Assembly (NCBI GenBank): GCA_947494155.1
Contig: CANLTW010000010.1
Location: 1-51,498 of the forward strand
Direction: 5' to 3'
From: Chlamydiota bacterium
GTDB lineage: Bacteria > Chlamydiota > Chlamydiia > Chlamydiales > RGXB01
DNA: 51,498 nt
Position 1 is the first letter of the stretch; every line of letters starts with the position of its first letter. The position numbers are program-made. This document shows, piece after piece, positions 1-6,000 of this stretch.

Positions 1-3000
1 TTTTTTGCACCTTTTGGTCTAAAAGATCTACGGCGATCTCGTCGTGCTCGATGTATTCGGTGATTAAGATCCCCCTTTTGGGATCAAAAAAATAGGGGCG
101 TGGAGCGATATGGGTATTTTCCAGCTGTTTCAGTACAGAATACTCCACCTCCTGGCTCGAGTAGAGCTCTTTCAATAGATTTGACGACAGGCGGAAAAAA
201 TAGCTCTCTCCCCCTTTTTTTACCTGATAGTTGGTGTTCGTCGCCGCTAACTCCAATAAACGTTTTGGATACTTAGGATGATCTTTTAAAACACCTTCGA
301 TCATCTCATCATAGCCGAGATAAAAGCCCCAATCTTGAAAAAGCTGTTGCTCCTCTGGAGTCTGGGTATTTCCCGCATCGATTTCTAGAAAGTTCGGTCG
401 CGAAACGGACTGCGGTACACCTCGCAAACTTGCAGGAGGGGTAAAAGGGGATCCATACCGGTTGACTAGCCGAAATCGGCAAATCCCTGCAATAGGAATT
501 GTGCTTCTAGCCTTAGATCCCCCCCCGAAAGAGTTAGAAGGATGATTTTTACAAAGGCAACAGAACTTTCATTTCTTTTTCCATTGATTCCCATGGGAGG
601 TCGCTACAAAACTCAGTTATTTCCTCTTTTTCATAGGTTTTTAGAAGAAGGGGCCTGATCTCCTCGTGAAAGGTTTTCAACCGTTTCAAAGTCACTTTGA
701 GGTTATCGTTCATCCTTAAAGAGAGTTGATGCGTCTGGCAGTTTGGACAGACCTCCCCGACCTTGCGCCCCCCCTTCTTACTCGTAATAAAACCACAATC
801 GATGCAAATAAGACGGTCTAAAATCCGCTCAACGCAGACTTTTTCAGGTGCATCAAAAAGGATCACCCTCCTTTTAACCCCCAGCCCTTGGAGGTGGGCA
901 TTAAGCCGATGCCAATCCTCAAGAGTTCTCCCGTATCCGTCGATGATCACGGGGACTTTTTTGTGCAAGAAAGCCTCTACTCTTGTGGCAACAAGTTGAA
1001 AGAGTGTATCCGAATCAACATACTCCCCCTTTTCGACAATCTCCTCAAGTTTACGCCCTAGATCGGTTCCGCTTAAAATCTCTTCACGGATCACATCCCC
1101 GGCGCTAATGTGGCCGTACCCTACTTGTTTAGCAAAAGAGGAGAAGGTCCCCTTCCCACTTCCGGGAGGTCCCATCAATAATATCGCCTCGTTCCCCTTC
1201 AAAAATGGGGAAAAACAGCACACTAGTATACAAAACAGTGTTCTTAGACTCTTCATCAACAAGCCCCTCCCTGATCGGTTTCAAATTTCTCTATCCGCTC
1301 CATGGCTGCCAAAAAAAACAGATCTCTCCATTCTTTATAGGGGCTATTCGTAGAGGGGTTTTCCATCTGCAGATGGCACCAAGCTGTCCAAAAAAGGTCG
1401 GATACGATCCGATAAAGAGCCATGCAATCCCTATCTTGTTGAGTCGGCCGGTCCGTGTAGTTGCCCAAAATCTGCCACATCATCTCATCAGACCAGCGCT
1501 CAATCGAGGCCATCGATGCAAGGGTGTGATAGGGGTGGCTCATCGCTGCATACTCCCAATCGATAAAAAAGAGTCTATCCCCTTTTCTTAAAATGTTCTT
1601 GTGGTGCAAATCCAGGTGGCATAACGTTTTTTTAGGATATTGCTCCAACTTTTTGGAGATCTTCATTAGTGCTGAAAGGGCTTTTTCATGAAACCCTTGA
1701 GGCAAGGGGGCTACTGCTTTTTTAACCAGTGCAAGCGTTTCCAGATAGGGATGAAACACTCTGTCAACATCAAGTTTCTCATTTTCAACCCGCTTAAGCA
1801 TATCGCACACAGTTTTTTGCACCTTTTGGTCTAAAAGATCTACGGCGATCTCGTCGTGCTCGATGTATTCGGTGATTAAGATCCCCCTTTTGGGATCAAA
1901 AAAATAGGGGCGTGGAGCGATATGGGTATTTTCCAGCTGATTCAGCACAGAATACTCCACCTCCTGGCTCGAGTAGAGCTCTTTGAACAGACCTGACGAC
2001 AGGCGGAAAAAATAGCTCTCTCCCCCTTTTTTTACCTGATAGTTGGTGTTCGTCGCCCCTAAATCTAAAAGACGTTTTGGATATCTCGGGTCGTCTTTAT
2101 AAACACCTTCGATCATCTCTTCAGCCCCTTGGAAGTCTGCTCTAAGAGGCACCATGCATAAAGAAAAAAAGACCAAACAGAGGAATGGGAACTGGTGAAA
2201 CTTAAGCATGATAAAAGACTTTGGTTGGGGTTTTGTTGAGGTAGTTTTCCAACCGCTTTTTCGCCTCGAGATCTATTTCCGTAAGCGTTGCCGACTCCCC
2301 CTGGATCTCAGGATCAATATAGCGGAGTTTACGCAAAACGGGGGGGCGACCATTGCTATCCAAGGAAGATCCTTTGAAAGTTGAGGAGCCAATCGCCTCA
2401 AATTCGGCCTTGTGAGGGCTATTTTTGATGATCTCAAGGAGCTCTTGTTCGGTTTTTTCGAAGTCTTCCTCTTTGAGGTGCCCCTCGTCGAGCAATTTTT
2501 TTAACAAAGAGGTAAACGCAACAGAGGCGGCCTCCACTTTGGGATCAAAATAGACCTCTTGGTTGACCTCTAAAAATTTATCAAAAAGGAGCCTTGCGGT
2601 CGCCACGTCCCGACATTTAAGGCGCTCTTCGTCGAGAACGATGTTATTCAAAATAAGGGAGTACTCGGGCTGGAAGATTTTCCCTACAGCTTTTAGATCG
2701 CGGATCATGTAGTCGAGTCGATCTACATTAATTCCCCTCTTTTCAAAAAACCTTGTCCCCCCTTCTTGAAGATCAGAAAGGGAAATACCGCAGTCGAGCA
2801 ACTCCTTTTGCACCCATTTTTGGGATAAAAAGCGCTCTCTATGTTTTTCGTGGTAGTCCTGCATTTCATGTCCGTATACAAGGTCGATCAGATGGGAAAA
2901 GGGGGTATGAGATACATCATGCAGAAGAGCTTGGATCTGCTCAAGCTCTGAGGCTCCGAGCATTTTTGCTAAAGCCATAGCTCCCACTGAGTGCTCATAG

Positions 3001-6000
3001 CGCGTTGTGGTTTGCCTCGGATCCACGAGATAGGCGATCCCGTTTTGGTGGATATTTTTAAGCCTTTCCATCAAAGGCGAGGCGAGAATTTTTGCGATCT
3101 TGGGGGAAACTTTTGTAGGGCCGTAGATCGAATCGATCACCATAGGGGTCTCCTTAGCTGTTGTGGAGAGGGTTTTGGGTTGCAAGCTGCGGCTGTTGTT
3201 GCGATAGATGGTAATCCCTTTCATGTTTAAAGCACTAATGGCAGATTGAAACACCTCATCCACCTCCTCAACGGTGGAATTTTCGACTAAATTTACCGTT
3301 TTGGAAATCCCCTCATCCGTATGACTTTGAAAAGCAGTGGTCATATGCAATTGGTCTAAGGGGGGCATCTCCAGGGCTGTCCTGTAGATCCGTTTGATCG
3401 AAAGCGGAAGTTCCGATTGTTGGAGGCTTCCGGTTTTTTCAATACACGCATATACTGCGCCCAAATCTTGAAAATACCCCTCCTCTTTTGCCTGTTGTTC
3501 TATCGTTTTTTTAAATTTTTCATCCACAACAAGAGAAAACGGGGGCTCAATCGATGCGGTCACGCCAGCCATCAACGAGCTTCTTCCGCTTGGAGGGATG
3601 ATAGTAGTGGAAAGGTTGCGTATCCCCACCTCTCTGATCTGTTCTCCTAACAGCTCCCAATCCTTCTCATTGGCCCGATTCGTGGGTGTTTTTTGAAAAG
3701 GTTTGGTGAAAAGATCGATACGGGTAGTGGCATGTTTAAAAGCAGGAAAAGCACCCCGCTTTTTTGCAAGCTCAACAGAGGCTTTCTTACTTTCCAAATT
3801 GATAAAGCTCATCAACTCTTTTGCGAAATTTTGTGCCTCAGCAGAACCGTAAGGGATTTTTTTTGCCTGCAAAACCTCTGAAAAGCCGCAGATTCCGATC
3901 CCAACTCGTCGTAAATTCGAGATCACTTCGGCGCTCTGTTTTGTCGGCATTCTGTCGATATTCACCTCGACAGCATTATCCAAAATCAGCATCGTAGTTT
4001 GAATGCTTTCTTTGAGAGCATCCCAATCGATCTCCCCTTTTTCCAAAAACCGGGGGAGATTTAGATAGGAGAACTGGCATACCTCACCCGAAAACAGCGA
4101 CACCTCGCCGCAAGGAACGACCGTTTCATAGCGACCCATATGCGGTACGCGATTCAGTCGATTGATCCGATCCATAAAAATGAGGCCAGGGTCACCGGTA
4201 GCATGCGCGTGCTCTGCAATGAGGCTCATGAGCAACTGAGGATCGACTTTCTGACCGTTACTTAATGTAAAAGGCTCTTTATTTTCTAGCGATTGGATAA
4301 AAGCATCGGTGATATTTACCGACAGATTGAACTTCCAGTCCTTGATGTCAGGGCTGTCTTGCTTGACACGAATAAAAGAGAGGACCTCTGGGTGGTGAAT
4401 AGATAATACACCCATGTTTCCACAAGAGCGTTCGATCATCCCCTTTTGCACCTCAGCCATAGCCACCTGATTCAGATAGCGGACCATCTCGGCTGGCTGG
4501 GCGACATCATCAAGGCAGAAGCCGGTTCCCATCCCCCTGGTGTGGTAATCCCCCACCATTTGGGCAATCTCTTCTCTTTTCATTTTCGATAAATTTACTG
4601 GGGGAATCGAGCAAGCTGATACACTTTTTTCCCGCCTGCCCGCATTGGTGAGCATAGGACTCCCCAAAATTACTTTAAAATCTGCTACGGACCTTAAAAA
4701 CTTATAGTGCCAGTTTGCAGCCTCTTGAGTGCCATAATATTTTTTACCCGCATCGGCTAAAAATTTAGTCGAGCGATTAAAAACTTCAAAGACCTCCTCA
4801 TTCTTATCCGCCAGTTTGTTGGTGTGTAAAAAGTCGGCTAAATGTTGCCCCGAATTCAGGATACGCGATCTGCGCAAGTACTCGGTAACGTCGCGGCAGT
4901 GGTTTTGACAAATGTTTTTAAAAACTGAGTTCATATGAGTTGAAATAATTAAAAAAAGAGGATACCTTACCCGATTTAGAACTTTTTAAGCAAACTTCTT
5001 AAAAACCTTTTTTTAGAGCCTCTGTAAACCCTTTTTCCAAAGAGAGATCGCCTTTTCTAAAGGGATACGGTTTTCGGGCTCCTCCTGAATCAGACCCTTG
5101 ATCACCTCCGCAAATTCGGGTACTTTCATCCATGAACTTTCGCTAGCTTTATAGATACAATCGTCCAAAAAGGACACTATTTTTTGTTGTCGAAATAGGG
5201 AGAAATCATTTTTTGAGTAACACCTGGTCGCTTCTGTCATCGTTTTTGTCTCATCGAGCCACTTAGTAATAGCAGTTGCAAGAGATCCCTTGGTTAGTAT
5301 TTCAAACAAAGTCGCACCGATAGCATATAGATCCAAACGTTTAGGATCGTAATTTTTTGGGACATAGTCGTCGTGATTTTTAAATTCTCTGTCAAAAAAT
5401 TTAAAAAATTCGCTCGCCTCCGGTCCACGATACCCCACTGTTCCGCACCGACCGCATTTTGCTTTTTCCGTAGTGTACATCCCGAAATCCCCTATAAACA
5501 GCTCCAACTTTTCTTTGTTAGTATCTACCAAAAGATTTGCAGGTTTGATATCACGATGAGCTCCTCCATGGTCATGCAGAACTTTAACTTTTTCTAAAAG
5601 CTGTAGACCTAAATCGGGTAAAGCGTTGTTATCCCTAATGCTAAGATTTTGTCGTCTTAGGAAATTTCTTAAATCCCCCTCACTTGCATGCTCTACCAGT
5701 TGAAATCTAAAATCGGCTTTTGATTCCACCCCAGTTTGGAGACTTTCAGGTACATAGGCGCATGAGAAGGCATTTTTACCCACAATTCGGGATATTTCAG
5801 GAATTGGACTGTAGGGTTGTGAATGGCGAGAAGTAGAAAAAAAGTAGCCTTGACCCTCCTTTGAGACCACAGGATAAAGCTGGCTTTCACCCCCTTGGGC
5901 AATCATTTTGTTAGAAGAATATCCCTGAAGCATTAAAGGCGGATCAGAGTCGCTTTTTCTTAATAAAAAACGTTTTTCGGTTAAATCGGCCACGCTTATG

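What a model noticed while it worked through the whole genome (the two positions that open the first line are those of the whole stretch)
2202..4934. Class II ribonucleotide reductase fused to a SAMHD1-type dNTPase domain
Gene g00890 (910 aa) joins a B12-type (class II) ribonucleotide reductase domain to a C-terminal HD domain whose nearest solved relatives are SAMHD1-family dNTP triphosphohydrolases, and it heads an operon with two kinase-like genes. I read it as one polypeptide that both makes and destroys deoxynucleotides, a built-in dNTP pool governor of an intracellular bacterium that also keeps a class Ia reductase. A reductase-dNTPase fusion has not been described and would give a natural handle on how dNTP synthesis and hydrolysis are coupled.
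Evidence so far: pfam.tsv PF02867 at aa 147-577. Call 113: aa 149-589 match Thermotoga NrdJ 1xje, E 3e-57; the thiyl-radical loop PCGE is kept (C275, E277) but the Asn before it is Val. Call 107: PF01966 HD, E 3e-5, in aa 600-910. Call 109: aa 600-910 hit 2hek E 6e-13, the C. elegans protein 6pwy 1e-10, human SAMHD1 about 1e-7. Call 108: 19 relatives of 762-948 aa, all with PF02867, 13 also with PF01966 on record. Call 120: in 15 aligned members C108, C275, E277, C286 and H648, H672, D673, D738, D741 are invariant. Call 114: the HD part lies in open frames of 904-935 aa in 10 of 401 Chlamydiales genomes (3 genera; 5 of 6 others of this genus). Calls 123-124: in two other genera the fused gene is followed by [...]
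(Added by a program. Inside this text positions count along the whole contig: contig position 1 is position 1 of the stretch shown here. "Call 12" and the like, gene names such as g00115 and contig names such as C1 are that model's own, and its searches are not shown. The text may have been shortened before it was handed on; [...] marks where a part breaks off. The agent that wrote the report below was given it as the finding of a first reader that could run no searches.)

Follow-up and report, generated by a model that had tools for sequence, protein, structure and literature searches.

The report
Odd ribonucleotide reductase fused to dNTPase
An uncultured freshwater chlamydia carries one 910-residue protein that joins an unusual B12-type ribonucleotide reductase look-alike to a SAMHD1-type nucleotide triphosphate hydrolase, a pairing that recurs in other bacteria and suggests an undescribed two-step nucleotide pathway.

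Summary
The ORF is real: window 2202-4934 (-), 910 aa. It is intact in 10 of 400 Chlamydiales genomes (three genera). Short RNA-library contigs from lake samples lie on it.

Residues 1-586 are a complete class II-like reductase barrel (Z 40.3 to Thermotoga NrdJ). Residues 596-910 are a SAMHD1/COG1078-type HD hydrolase with the full catalytic residue set.

The reductase half is not an ordinary NrdJ. It belongs to a separate clade, 130 of 224 aligned relatives. That clade:
- replaces the Asn of the N-x-C-x-E finger loop (Val here);
- has 8 residues where the 22-residue specificity loop 1 should be;
- lacks the C-terminal cysteine tail;
- scores below the NrdJ equivalog cut-off;
- still keeps the thiyl Cys, the Glu and both redox Cys.

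Clade members are repeatedly fused or adjacent to triphosphate hydrolases (HD, NUDIX, Ham1) and kinases.

My best reading (about 0.4) is a sequential enzyme: NTP to dNTP (or a related product) to nucleoside plus triphosphate. It sits in an accessory cassette with two exported kinases. It is not a regulated dNTP-pool governor.

The genome has a separate class Ic-like reductase, dUTPase and ThyX, and no detectable B12 genes. I found no description in print. Activity is untested.

The parts
2202..4934 (-). Whole ORF, 910 aa plus stop codon: reductase-like barrel fused to an HD hydrolase
   Evidence: ORF and translation. AlphaFold2 pLDDT 94.7, pTM 0.92; open frames of 904-935 aa in 10 of 400 genomes.
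3150..4934 (-). aa 1-595: class II-like ribonucleotide reductase barrel of the Asn-less, loop-1-less clade. The linker is about aa 580-600.
   Evidence: PF02867, E 4.7e-74. TIGR02504, 363 bits against a cut-off of 399.95. Z 40.3, rmsd 2.4 A over 536 residues to T. maritima NrdJ 3o0o. Searches place it in the clade.
4104..4121 (-). Finger loop V272-V273-P274-C275-G276-E277. The thiyl Cys and the Glu are kept. Val stands where all canonical sequences have Asn.
   Evidence: alignment to 1xje, tvvpcge against stnpcge; invariant in 19 fused members. N in 94 of 94 canonical sequences; A, V, S or P in 130 of 130 clade members.
4494..4520 (-). aa 139-147: an 8-residue segment in place of the 22-residue loop 1, the allosteric specificity-effector loop of class I/II reductases
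   Evidence: alignment gap of 14 columns after GxGTGF; short in 130 of 130 Asn-less sequences, 19-30 residues in 92 of 94 canonical ones; the role of loop 1 is taken from passages of Burnim et al.
2205..3149 (-). aa 596-910: SAMHD1/COG1078-type HD phosphohydrolase domain, short form of about 315 aa
   Evidence: the profile hits 2hek at 5e-30, 2q14 at 4e-25, 2o6i at 9e-24 and SAMHD1 at 1e-19; model pLDDT 93.5; the Foldseek top hits are SAMHD1 9mr6 and 2hek; a stand-alone family of about 325 aa exists.
2697..3002 (-). Catalytic core of the HD domain: R645, H648, H672-D673, H676, H681, D684, H695, D738, D741, Y742, R745, D746
   Evidence: all invariant in 19 of 19 fused members; the motifs RYEHS, LLHDxSHxxFSHxxD and DRxDYxxRD align with NRFEHS, LCHDLGHGPFSHMFD and DKWDYFARD of SAMHD1.
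1256..2209 (-). Downstream gene 1: APH/choline-kinase-like kinase (317 aa) with a signal-peptide-like N-terminus. It overlaps the fused gene's end by 8 bases.
   Evidence: PF01636, 2.3e-13; choline kinase 4r77, 8e-21; the hydrophobic N-terminus is conserved in orthologues; orthologues of 38% identity or more occur only in the 10 genomes with the fused gene, and always next to it.
549..1262 (-). Downstream gene 2: adenylate-kinase-like NMP kinase (237 aa) with a signal-peptide-like N-terminus directly before the P-loop
   Evidence: PF00406, 4.4e-29; adenylate kinases, 6e-26; conserved after the first kinase in L004-L010 and L013, with conserved hydrophobic N-termini.
2..427 (-). Downstream gene 3: a second APH-like paralogue, cut by the start of the window
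   Evidence: 83% identical to L004 6028-6453, and matches the same loci as gene 1. G000:C10:2-322 is 89% identical to aa 26-132 of gene 1.

Best explanation
The protein is a two-step nucleotide-processing enzyme.

Step 1. The N-terminal barrel descends from class II (adenosylcobalamin-type) ribonucleotide reductases and still performs thiyl-radical chemistry at the 2' position of a ribonucleotide, most likely a triphosphate. It does so without allosteric specificity control and without the usual cysteine tail for re-reduction.

Step 2. The C-terminal SAMHD1-type HD domain removes the triphosphate from the product. The net reaction is NTP to deoxynucleoside (or a close analogue) plus triphosphate.

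The gene is the first of an accessory cassette, inherited as a unit with two exported kinases. It stands apart from the genome's housekeeping dNTP supply (class Ic-like reductase, dUTPase, ThyX, nucleotide transporters).

Shown: domain identities, residue conservation, clade membership, and the recurrent hydrolase and kinase partnership.
Inferred: catalytic competence, triphosphate substrate, order of the two steps, cofactor.
For: Intact barrel:
- Z 40.3 and rmsd 2.4 A over 536 residues to NrdJ.
- C108, C275, E277 and C286 are invariant in 19 fused members. Across 130 diverse clade members they are kept in 128, 130, 129 and 126. This argues for retained catalysis.

Complete HD catalytic set, with the SAMHD1 family nearest by sequence profile and by fold.

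Independent links between this reductase-like clade and triphosphate hydrolases:
- HD fused in a 33-tip clade (support 1.0) and in the more distant P0125.
- A separate HD gene 4 bases downstream in two Bacillota MAGs.
- NUDIX fused in two separate subclades, the P0045 group and P0153.
- A NUDIX gene within about 1.3 kb in 3 of 3 unfused chlamydial loci.
- Ham1 genes in the Clostridium cluster.

Kinase links:
- A PfkB kinase directly upstream in L017, L018 and L019.
- An AAA_18 kinase-like N-terminus fused in P0161.
- APH-like and AK-like genes downstream here.

All partner hydrolase families act on nucleoside triphosphates (established knowledge). The clade also gains a conserved Arg at position 451 in the phosphate-loop region while losing the Asn of the P-N-S-P diphosphate motif.

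Loss of loop 1 fits an enzyme that does not have to balance four substrates.

In a Woesebacteria genome a clade member is the only reductase homologue found. That genome also has a CobA-type adenosyltransferase, which fits a working B12 enzyme.

RNA-library contigs from three lake studies lie on the gene and bridge into the next gene.
Against: - No activity data exist for any clade member.
- The replaced Asn is conserved in every canonical sequence examined here (94 of 94). From memory, it is essential in E. coli class Ia, so the chemistry may be altered or absent.
- The own genome is 97.6% complete, yet I found no B12-binding domain, no PduO- or CobA-type adenosyltransferase and no cobalamin riboswitch, and only a weak FecCD match. 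Four of five other carrier genomes also lack both adenosyltransferase types. The cofactor would have to come ready-made from the host, or be something else.
- There is no C-terminal cysteine pair, so the source of reducing equivalents is unknown.
- Making a dNTP only to strip it to a nucleoside looks wasteful. No dNK-type deoxynucleoside kinase was found (0 of 7 genomes of the genus).
- The kinases look exported, so they may not feed or drain a cytoplasmic enzyme.
- The position that in SAMHD1 is Leu150 (number recalled) is Asn in 18 of 19 fused members. The HD substrate may therefore not be a plain dNTP.
- Conserved gene order among related chlamydiae is weak evidence of shared function.
Confidence: 0.4

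Rival explanations
1. This is the first reader's model: a dNTP-pool governor. The barrel is a normal class II reductase that makes all four dNDPs or dNTPs. The HD domain destroys surplus dNTPs. The fusion holds the pool at a set point.
For: - Both domain types are the two known arms of dNTP homeostasis: the reductase barrel and the SAMHD1-type HD.
- Catalytic residues of both are conserved.
- The organism depends on its host for nucleotides, with 3-4 NTT transporter genes.
Against: - Loop 1, the site through which every known class I/II reductase balances its four substrates, is missing.
- The HD part lacks about 150 residues of the SAMHD1 core, and the allosteric-site residues could not be mapped.
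- The genome already has a complete separate route: class Ic-like NrdAB, dUTPase and ThyX.
- The gene is present in only 10 of 400 Chlamydiales genomes. It is an accessory, not a core regulator.
- The same barrel clade pairs with NUDIX and Ham1 hydrolases in other phyla. That looks like a pathway rather than a brake.
Confidence: 0.12
2. The barrel is a pseudo-enzyme. It has lost reductase activity (no Asn, no cofactor supply). It serves as a nucleotide-binding sensor or scaffold that switches the attached dNTPase on or off, for example to deplete dNTPs under stress or phage attack.
For: - The universally conserved Asn is lost.
- No B12 genes or riboswitch were found in the genome.
- There is no re-reduction tail.
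- Bacterial dNTP-depleting enzymes are known defences (recalled).
- One unfused relative (L015) lies beside Bro-N, NYN and DUF6602 genes.
- The NUDIX part of P0045 matches a candidate defence family, PDC-S07, at 3.7e-13.
Against: - The thiyl Cys, the Glu and both redox Cys are kept in 126-130 of 130 diverse clade members spanning several phyla. A mere binding module would not be expected to keep them.
- PADLOC has no match for the fused protein or for the split pair.
- In a Woesebacteria genome the clade member is the only reductase homologue found, and that genome has an adenosyltransferase.
- With the A1 patterns, only one weak relative was found in viral contigs.
Confidence: 0.15
3. The barrel catalyses a different radical reaction on a nucleotide sugar. 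Examples are dehydration to a 3'-keto-2'-deoxy intermediate or another 2'/3' modification. The HD domain releases the modified nucleoside. The cassette then makes a nucleoside analogue or signal that acts outside the cell, and the exported kinases act on it or protect against it.
For: - Systematic changes surround the active site: N273 to A/V, L288 to F, S290 to Y, T451 to R, and a changed loop 2.
- There is no reductant tail.
- The HD residue at the sugar-discriminating position is polar (Asn).
- The Clostridium cluster holds a methyltransferase, a deaminase, a DHH phosphoesterase, a histidine phosphatase, two Ham1 genes and a PLP decarboxylase around the pair. This resembles a nucleoside-modification cluster.
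- HD phosphohydrolases finish some nucleoside-antibiotic pathways, such as OxsA in oxetanocin (recalled).
- Distribution is patchy and the cassette is inherited as a unit.
Against: - Both bottom-face cysteines, which are needed for net reduction, are conserved.
- In Woesebacteria the gene lies among plain salvage genes: PfkB kinase, deaminase, nucleoside phosphorylase and GMP synthase. It is also the only reductase homologue there.
- No product is known.
Confidence: 0.2

Closest known systems
Class II (adenosylcobalamin-dependent) ribonucleotide reductase NrdJ, dimeric type, e.g. Thermotoga maritima NrdJ (PDB 1xje, 3o0o)
   Same: - The ten-stranded barrel fold: Z 40.3, 28% identity over 536 residues.
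- It is the best sequence match of any solved protein, E 7e-57.
- The finger-loop Cys and Glu and both redox Cys are present.
- There is no class I-type tyrosine pair at the C-terminal strand.
   Different: - Asn of N-x-C-x-E is replaced by Val.
- The 22-residue loop 1 is replaced by 8 residues.
- Loop 2 reads R-S-C-G instead of R-R-G-A.
- P-N-S-P becomes L-G-S-P.
- About 43 residues lie between aligned positions 396 and 439, against 13-18 in most canonical sequences.
- There is no Zn-finger or cysteine tail.
- An HD domain is attached.
- It scores below the TIGR02504 cut-off.
- It lies across a long branch (0.60) from 94 canonical sequences.
SAMHD1-family dNTP triphosphohydrolases (COG1078: human SAMHD1, E. 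faecalis EF1143 2o6i, Aquifex 2hek, Bacteroides 2q14)
   Same: - The HD fold and all metal-binding and catalytic motifs align.
- The nearest structures by Foldseek are SAMHD1 9mr6 (1.8e-10), 2hek (TMq 0.73) and human SAMHD1.
   Different: - It is about 315 aa, against 370-480 aa or more. The regions that form SAMHD1's allosteric sites and tetramer could not be matched.
- HDxGHxPFSH reads HDVSHTPFSH.
- Asn stands at the position of SAMHD1 Leu150 (number recalled).
- It is attached to a reductase barrel.
- It belongs to a distinct stand-alone family of about 325 aa, which is uncharacterised.
C-terminal extensions of class II reductases described by Burnim et al. (IscU-like domain, zinc finger, cysteine pairs)
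   Same: The class II C-terminus is known to be the variable, domain-accreting end of the enzyme. Some sequences have no C-terminal cysteines (section 9 read).
   Different: The described extensions serve active-site re-reduction or oligomerisation. The preprint and the Protein Science paper have 0 occurrences of 'HD domain' and 'Nudix', and the Protein Science paper also has 0 of 'hydrolase'. Here the extension is a second enzyme.
Bacterial dNTP-depleting defence enzymes (dGTPase and dCTP deaminase systems; recalled from Tal et al. 2022, not read here)
   Same: An HD-type dNTP hydrolase occurs in bacteria, in patchily distributed accessory genes.
   Different: There is no PADLOC match. It is fused to a reductase-like barrel, and it sits in an operon with exported kinases rather than in a recognisable defence island.

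Membership tests
Class II ribonucleotide reductase (NrdJ) | Ten-stranded alpha/beta barrel with a finger loop | tested here: met
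   Z 40.3, rmsd 2.4 A, 536 residues aligned to 3o0o. PF02867, E 4.7e-74.
Class II ribonucleotide reductase (NrdJ) | Thiyl-radical Cys and Glu on the finger loop, plus the redox-active Cys pair | tested here: met
   C275, E277, C108 and C286 are invariant in 19 of 19 fused members. They are kept in 130, 129, 128 and 126 of 130 clade members.
Class II ribonucleotide reductase (NrdJ) | Asn two residues before the thiyl Cys (N-x-C-x-E) | tested here: not met
   Val273 stands here. The position is A, V, S or P in 130 of 130 clade members and N in 94 of 94 canonical sequences.
Class II ribonucleotide reductase (NrdJ) | Loop 1, the allosteric specificity-effector site | tested here: not met
   There are 8 residues where 92 of 94 canonical sequences have 19-30.
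Class II ribonucleotide reductase (NrdJ) | Curated equivalog score (TIGR02504 NrdJ_Z, cut-off 399.95 bits) | tested here: not met
   The protein scores 363.3 bits. Nine other clade members score 291-381 bits.
Class II ribonucleotide reductase (NrdJ) | Phosphate-specificity motif P-N-S-P (NDP) or P-A-G-R (NTP) | tested here: not met
   The motif reads L-G-S-P. In the clade, position 91 is G or S rather than N.
Class II ribonucleotide reductase (NrdJ) | C-terminal cysteine pair or zinc finger for re-reduction | tested here: not met
   No conserved Cys lies after aa 349 apart from C774 in the HD part. Unfused clade members end 0-15 residues after the barrel.
Class II ribonucleotide reductase (NrdJ) | Binds and uses adenosylcobalamin | not testable with these tools
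   There is no sequence motif for B12 binding in class II. Indirect evidence: no B12-binding domain, adenosyltransferase or riboswitch was found in the genome. One other carrier genome has a CobA-type adenosyltransferase.
SAMHD1-type dNTP triphosphohydrolase (COG1078 HD family) | H...HD...D metal-binding set | tested here: met
   H648, H672-D673 and D738 are invariant and align with the SAMHD1 motifs.
SAMHD1-type dNTP triphosphohydrolase (COG1078 HD family) | Second-shell catalytic and substrate residues (the QRLxxIxQxG, RxEHS, HxxxxHxxD and DxxDYxxRD motifs) | tested here: met
   R624, L625, Q630, G632, R645, H676, H681, D684, D741, Y742, R745 and D746 are present in 19 of 19 fused members. 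SAMHD1 residue numbers are recalled.
SAMHD1-type dNTP triphosphohydrolase (COG1078 HD family) | Fold similarity to solved family members | tested here: met
   9mr6 at 1.8e-10, 2hek at 1.5e-9 (TMq 0.73), human SAMHD1 at about 2e-9. The model has pLDDT 93.5.
SAMHD1-type dNTP triphosphohydrolase (COG1078 HD family) | Allosteric nucleotide sites and tetramer-forming C-terminal lobe | tested here: inconclusive
   The domain is 315 aa. Profile alignment to SAMHD1 covers mainly positions 2-123, plus a weak second stretch. No mapping of the allosteric residues was possible.
SAMHD1-type dNTP triphosphohydrolase (COG1078 HD family) | Hydrophobic residue that excludes the 2'-OH (SAMHD1 Leu150, recalled) | tested here: not met
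   The aligned position is Asn631 in 18 of 19 fused members. It varies (G, N, H, L, F) in the stand-alone family.
SAMHD1-type dNTP triphosphohydrolase (COG1078 HD family) | dNTP to deoxynucleoside plus triphosphate activity | not testable with these tools
   This needs an enzyme assay.

The most novel reading that the evidence does not exclude
The fused gene is the most explicit member of an unrecognised fourth functional type of ribonucleotide-reductase-family enzyme. This is a large clade found in Chlamydiae, candidate-phyla bacteria, Bacillota and others.

The clade has given up three things: the universally conserved active-site Asn, allosteric specificity control, and the cysteine tail. 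It works only in tandem with a nucleoside-triphosphate hydrolase and a kinase.

Together these form a kinase, radical-enzyme, hydrolase route that converts a ribonucleoside into a deoxy (or otherwise 2'/3'-modified) nucleoside or nucleoside monophosphate. In the chlamydial cassette the product may be handed to exported kinases, which would mean it acts outside the bacterial cytoplasm.
Probability: 0.3. Interest if true: 0.85.

Novelty: new variant of a known kind. Interest (0 to 1): 0.65.

Why it matters
Ribonucleotide reductases are among the best-studied radical enzymes. Two of their features are treated as universal: the Asn-Cys-Glu finger loop and allosteric specificity control.

The clade described here keeps the radical and redox cysteines but drops the Asn and the specificity loop. 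It is repeatedly and independently tied to triphosphate hydrolases. If it is active, one of two things follows:
- the Asn is dispensable in a different active-site setting, or
- the barrel has been recruited for new chemistry.

The natural fusion offers a single-polypeptide system to test either case. It would also show how product hand-over between dNTP synthesis and hydrolysis can work.

For chlamydial biology, it marks an accessory, cassette-like nucleotide module with exported kinases in freshwater lineages. If the barrel turns out to be inactive, the finding shrinks to an HD hydrolase with an unusual regulatory domain.

Tried and rejected
- Earlier notes of this scan: no look-alike stretch was found by sequence.
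- ESM Atlas: no usable hit and no model.
- PADLOC: no match for the fused protein, either kinase, or the split pair of L017. Only the upstream Ser/Thr kinase and the NUDIX part of P0045 matched. I therefore did not file it as a known defence system.
- Viral contigs scanned with A1 patterns: only one weak hit, 31% over aa 194-279 in a giant-virus MAG. I found no sign of a phage origin with this query.
- Base composition: the cassette is 45-46% GC against a genome mean of 42.1% (sd 2.2 for 3-kb windows). The class I reductase region is 45.2%, so I do not read this as evidence of transfer.
- An early regex scan suggested a 'xHYCGE' variant. The alignment showed that motif lies elsewhere in those proteins, and their finger loops read xAPCAE. 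I dropped it.
- Midpoint rooting put the root inside the Asn-less group. I tested the split by re-rooting. Support labels can shift on re-rooting (1.0 and 0.795 were read for the same branch), so the support is approximate.
- RNA-library contigs: none of the listed pieces bridges the domain boundary at 3149/3150, and 22 further pieces were not shown. Contigs cannot show strand or level, and DNA carry-over is possible.
- Promoter and terminator scan: 5 promoter-like sites against 8.2 expected. The 14 terminator-like sites (7.8 expected) are mostly inside genes. I drew nothing from it.
I could not measure inter-domain geometry, active-site distances or the B12 pocket.
- Two SAMHD1 papers were searched for residue roles. 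One review states only that the site excludes 2'-OH. The other gives D311 as a metal ligand. The roles of L150 and Y374 remain recalled.
- One search was rejected for a badly formed search term and was re-sent, corrected.

Full report
**1.

The minus strand of window 2202-4934 carries one uninterrupted ORF of 910 codons.
- Pfam finds the reductase barrel PF02867 at aa 147-577 (E 4.7e-74). It finds an HD domain, PF01966, at aa 645-703 (E 7.6e-5, just over its cut-off).
- Against solved structures, aa 149-589 match Thermotoga maritima NrdJ at E 7e-57. aa 601-848 match the Aquifex HD protein 2hek at 2.7e-12. SAMHD1 chains follow at about 1e-6.
- An AlphaFold2 model of the whole chain, built on a 101-sequence alignment, has mean pLDDT 94.7 and pTM 0.92. 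Only the linker around aa 580-600 dips, to about 75.

The fusion is not an assembly accident.
- A search of 400 scored Chlamydiales genomes finds open frames of 904-935 aa covering the whole query in 10 of them, the window's genome included. They come from three genera in three families. An eleventh copy is cut by a contig end.
- Within the window's genus, 5 of the 6 other genomes have it. The one without is only 72% complete.
- The protein database holds 30 relatives of 762-976 aa at 48-91% identity.

**2. The reductase half is complete but not canonical**

Structurally it is a full barrel. VIA-align gives Z 40.3 and rmsd 2.4 A over 536 residues to T. maritima NrdJ with adenosylcobalamin. Class I alpha subunits follow at Z 33-38.

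C108, C275, E277 and C286 are invariant in 19 fused members. These are the redox pair, the thiyl Cys and the Glu.

Five features set it apart.
- The finger loop reads VVPCGE where NrdJ has TNPCGE.
- A 14-column gap follows the GxGTGF motif.
- About 43 residues lie between aligned positions 396 and 439, against 13-18 in most canonical sequences.
- No cysteine-bearing tail follows the barrel.
- The protein scores 363 bits on the NrdJ equivalog model, whose cut-off is 399.95.

I then aligned 224 of the 272 proteins collected. I dropped those under 480 or over 1000 aa, the three neighbouring gene products and five HD-only fragments. The result is clean.
- 130 sequences have A, V, S or P at the Asn position. 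All 130 have the short segment where loop 1 should be: 8 residues in 128, 9 in one, and 0 in one N-terminally truncated sequence.
- 92 sequences have Asn and a 19-30-residue loop.
- 2 sequences have Asn with a 10-11-residue loop.

A FastTree tree on 521 columns separates the 94 Asn sequences from the 130 others by a single branch of length 0.60. The support labels read 1.0 and 0.795 depending on rooting, so they are approximate.

The nine other clade members I scanned all fall below the NrdJ_Z cut-off, at 291-381 bits.

According to the passages I read of Burnim et al. (bioRxiv 10.1101/2022.04.23.489257, sections 3 and 9):
- loop 1 is the binding site of the specificity effectors in class I and II enzymes;
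- specificity regulation 'appears to be important in all RNRs'.

Further clade-specific changes lie around the active site:
- the Asn of the P-N-S-P phosphate motif becomes G or S;
- loop 2 changes from R-R-G-A to R-(P/S)-(V/C)-G;
- L288 becomes F and S290 becomes Y next to the redox Cys;
- T451-I452 become R-S in the P-x-G-x-x phosphate-loop region.

Despite all this, the four catalytic residues are kept in 126-130 of the 130 clade members. I read that as retained catalysis rather than decay.

**3. The HD half is a SAMHD1-type hydrolase**

- A profile of the HD part and 33 relatives hits only COG1078-type structures: 2hek (5e-30), 2q14 (4e-25), the E. faecalis protein 2o6i (9e-24), and SAMHD1 from several species (about 1e-19).
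- The printed alignments match QRLxxIxQxG, RYEHS, LLHDxSHxxFSHxxD and DRxDYxxRD to the corresponding SAMHD1 motifs.
- All these residues are invariant in the 19 fused members.
- A model of the domain alone has pLDDT 93.5. It finds a fungal SAMHD1, 2hek (TMq 0.73) and human SAMHD1 first.
- The domain is short, about 315 aa. It belongs to a stand-alone family of about 325 aa found in Bacillaceae, Bacteroidota, Planctomycetota, archaea and candidate phyla. None of these carries a functional name.
- Stand-alone copies also occur in other Chlamydiales.
- The position aligned with SAMHD1 Leu150 is Asn in 18 of 19 fused members. The residue number and its role in excluding the 2'-OH are recalled. The sugar preference of this HD domain is therefore open.

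**4. The pairing recurs, which is the main new evidence**

- In a Clostridium MAG and a Bacillota MAG, a 562-aa clade member (finger loop VAPCAE) is followed after 4-7 bases by a separate HD gene, 345 aa in the Clostridium MAG and cut by the contig end in the other. tblastn with the fused protein spans both genes in the Clostridium locus.
- NUDIX domains are fused to the barrel's C-terminus in two separate subclades: the P0045/48/51/53/54 group and P0153.
- In 3 of 3 unfused chlamydial loci (L014, L015, L016), a NUDIX gene lies within about 1.3 kb.
- The Clostridium cluster adds two Ham1-family genes.

Kinases recur too.
- A PfkB kinase abuts the barrel gene in L017, L018 and a Woesebacteria locus, L019.
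- P0161 carries an N-terminal P-loop kinase-like domain.
- In the chlamydial cassette, an APH/choline-kinase-like gene and an adenylate-kinase-like gene follow.

HD (SAMHD1-type), NUDIX and Ham1 enzymes all act on nucleoside triphosphates (established knowledge). With the new Arg451 and the lost P-N-S-P Asn, this makes a triphosphate substrate the most economical inference. It suggests the order kinase, then radical enzyme, then hydrolase.

**5. The cassette in this genome**

- The fused gene's stop overlaps the next gene's start by 8 bases. That gene's stop overlaps the third gene's start.
- Orthologues of the first kinase at 38% identity or more occur in exactly the 10 genomes that have the fused gene, always directly downstream. 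Seven other genomes have only 31-34% paralogues. These genomes are kin from three genera, so this is not a statistical test.
- Both kinases have hydrophobic N-termini that look like signal peptides. These are conserved in orthologues as distant as 40% identity. In the adenylate-kinase-like protein, the P-loop starts a few residues after the predicted cleavage region.
- The fused protein has no such N-terminus.
- The nearest solved relatives are choline kinase 4r77 (8e-21) and ordinary adenylate kinases (6e-26).
- The upstream Ser/Thr kinase is conserved only in the closest relative. I do not count it as part of the unit.
- Short contigs from three lake metatranscriptome libraries, at 95-100% identity, lie on both halves of the gene. 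They bridge the fused-gene/kinase junction (2128-2279) and the kinase/kinase junction (1186-1478). This is a weak hint of expression, because contigs carry no strand and DNA carry-over is possible.

**6. The rest of the genome**

The assembly is 1.41 Mb in 24 contigs and 97.6% complete.
- It has a class I NrdA-NrdB pair.
- Its NrdB is closest to 1syy (E 3e-163) and has Phe at the aligned radical-site position. That makes it class Ic-like. That 1syy is the Chlamydia trachomatis protein is recalled.
- All 7 genomes of the genus have dUTPase, ThyX and nucleotide transporters. The own genome has three full-length transporter matches and one weak one. None of the 7 has a dNK-type deoxynucleoside kinase.

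Ordinary dNTP supply therefore does not need the fused protein.

No B12-binding domain, PduO-type or CobA-type adenosyltransferase, or cobalamin riboswitch was found. There is only a 27-bit FecCD match.

Among five other carrier genomes:
- none has a PduO-type enzyme;
- only the Woesebacteria genome has a CobA-type enzyme, in two pieces separated by a TGA.

That same Woesebacteria genome has no other PF02867 match and no NrdD. This is the best indirect argument that clade members can be working, B12-dependent reductases. The other five genomes each have a class I or class III enzyme as well.

**7. Weighing the readings**

- Sequential two-step enzyme, about 0.4. It explains the recurrent hydrolase and kinase partners, the retained catalytic cysteines and the lost specificity loop.
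- Pool governor, about 0.12. It is weakened by the missing regulatory elements, the accessory distribution and the separate housekeeping route.
- Pseudo-enzyme sensor attached to a dNTPase, about 0.15. It fits the lost Asn and the missing cofactor supply, but not the conservation of four catalytic residues across phyla.
- Altered radical chemistry giving a modified nucleoside, about 0.2. It fits the remodelled active site, the missing reductant tail, the polar residue in the HD sugar pocket and the modification-rich Clostridium cluster. It conflicts with the plain salvage context in Woesebacteria.

None can be settled without an assay.

**8. Novelty**

Five full-text searches found no paper on a reductase-HD or reductase-NUDIX fusion, or on an Asn-less class II-like clade.
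- The two broad surveys of the family that I searched do not contain the terms 'HD domain' or 'Nudix'.
- The phosphate-motif survey accounts for P-N-S-P, P-A-G-R, P-S-M-R and P-Q-G-S-P only (passages).

Subscription papers and supplements were not seen, and the RNRdb classification could not be consulted. The clade may therefore be known to curators under a name I did not find.

I rate the finding a new variant of a known kind. Both folds are familiar. The clade's defining losses and its obligate hydrolase partnership are not.

Noticed in passing
window 549-2209 (-); orthologues in L004-L013: Both kinases downstream of the fused gene have conserved signal-peptide-like N-termini. These are an APH/choline-kinase-like protein and an adenylate-kinase-like protein. 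In the latter, the P-loop starts a few residues after the hydrophobic segment. An exported adenylate kinase paired with an exported small-molecule kinase is unusual.
   Followed up: partly
window 5013-6191 (-): A 392-aa Ser/Thr protein kinase lies directly upstream. It has weak similarity to Legionella effector kinase LegK1 and to defence-system kinases. It is conserved only in the closest relative, L004.
   Followed up: partly
L017 3923-13245 (Clostridium sp. MAG); L018: A cluster of nucleotide-handling genes surrounds the split reductase-like and HD pair. In order: Ham1, histidine phosphatase, PfkB kinase, the pair, a second Ham1, a methyltransferase-like gene, a DHH phosphoesterase, a cytidine/dCMP deaminase and a PLP decarboxylase. 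It may be a nucleoside-modification or salvage cluster.
   Followed up: partly
G001 (Woesebacteria): L019 6899-8692 and G001:C4:39577-40148: The Asn-less reductase-like gene is the only reductase homologue found in this genome. A CobA-type adenosyltransferase is present in two adjacent pieces separated by one TGA.
   Followed up: no
proteins P0161, P0182, P0061, P0038-P0041: Other architectures occur in the clade. P0161 has an N-terminal AAA_18 kinase-like domain. P0182 has a C-terminal TFIIS-type zinc ribbon. P0061 has a signal-peptide-like N-terminus. P0038-P0041 have basic N-terminal extensions that resemble targeting peptides.
   Followed up: no
G000:C2:78959-81725 (L001, L003): The housekeeping reductase is class Ic-like. 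NrdB is closest to 1syy (E 3e-163) and has Phe at the aligned radical-site position. The NrdA frame is 1066 aa, long enough for several N-terminal ATP-cones. I did not check this.
   Followed up: partly
aa 288, 290, 451 of the fused protein (window about 4065-4072 and 3580-3584): The clade has near-invariant residues that are absent from canonical NrdJ. These are F288 and Y290 beside the redox Cys286, and R451-S452 in the phosphate-loop region. They are candidates for compensating the lost Asn or for changing phosphate preference.
   Followed up: no
other Chlamydiales genomes (e.g. G215, G234, G398, G324, G122, G231, G064): Stand-alone HD genes of 343-387 aa occur in genomes without the fusion. 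They are 29-38% identical to the HD half. One contig length (43,916 bases) is shared by the fused P0018 and the stand-alone P0277, so some genomes may hold both forms.
   Followed up: no
window 2202-4934 in public runs: Near-identical sequence (0.69-0.90 of sampled words) is held by 13 freshwater or lake DNA runs. This excludes the run that is the possible source of this DNA. The organism seems widespread in lake water.
   Followed up: partly
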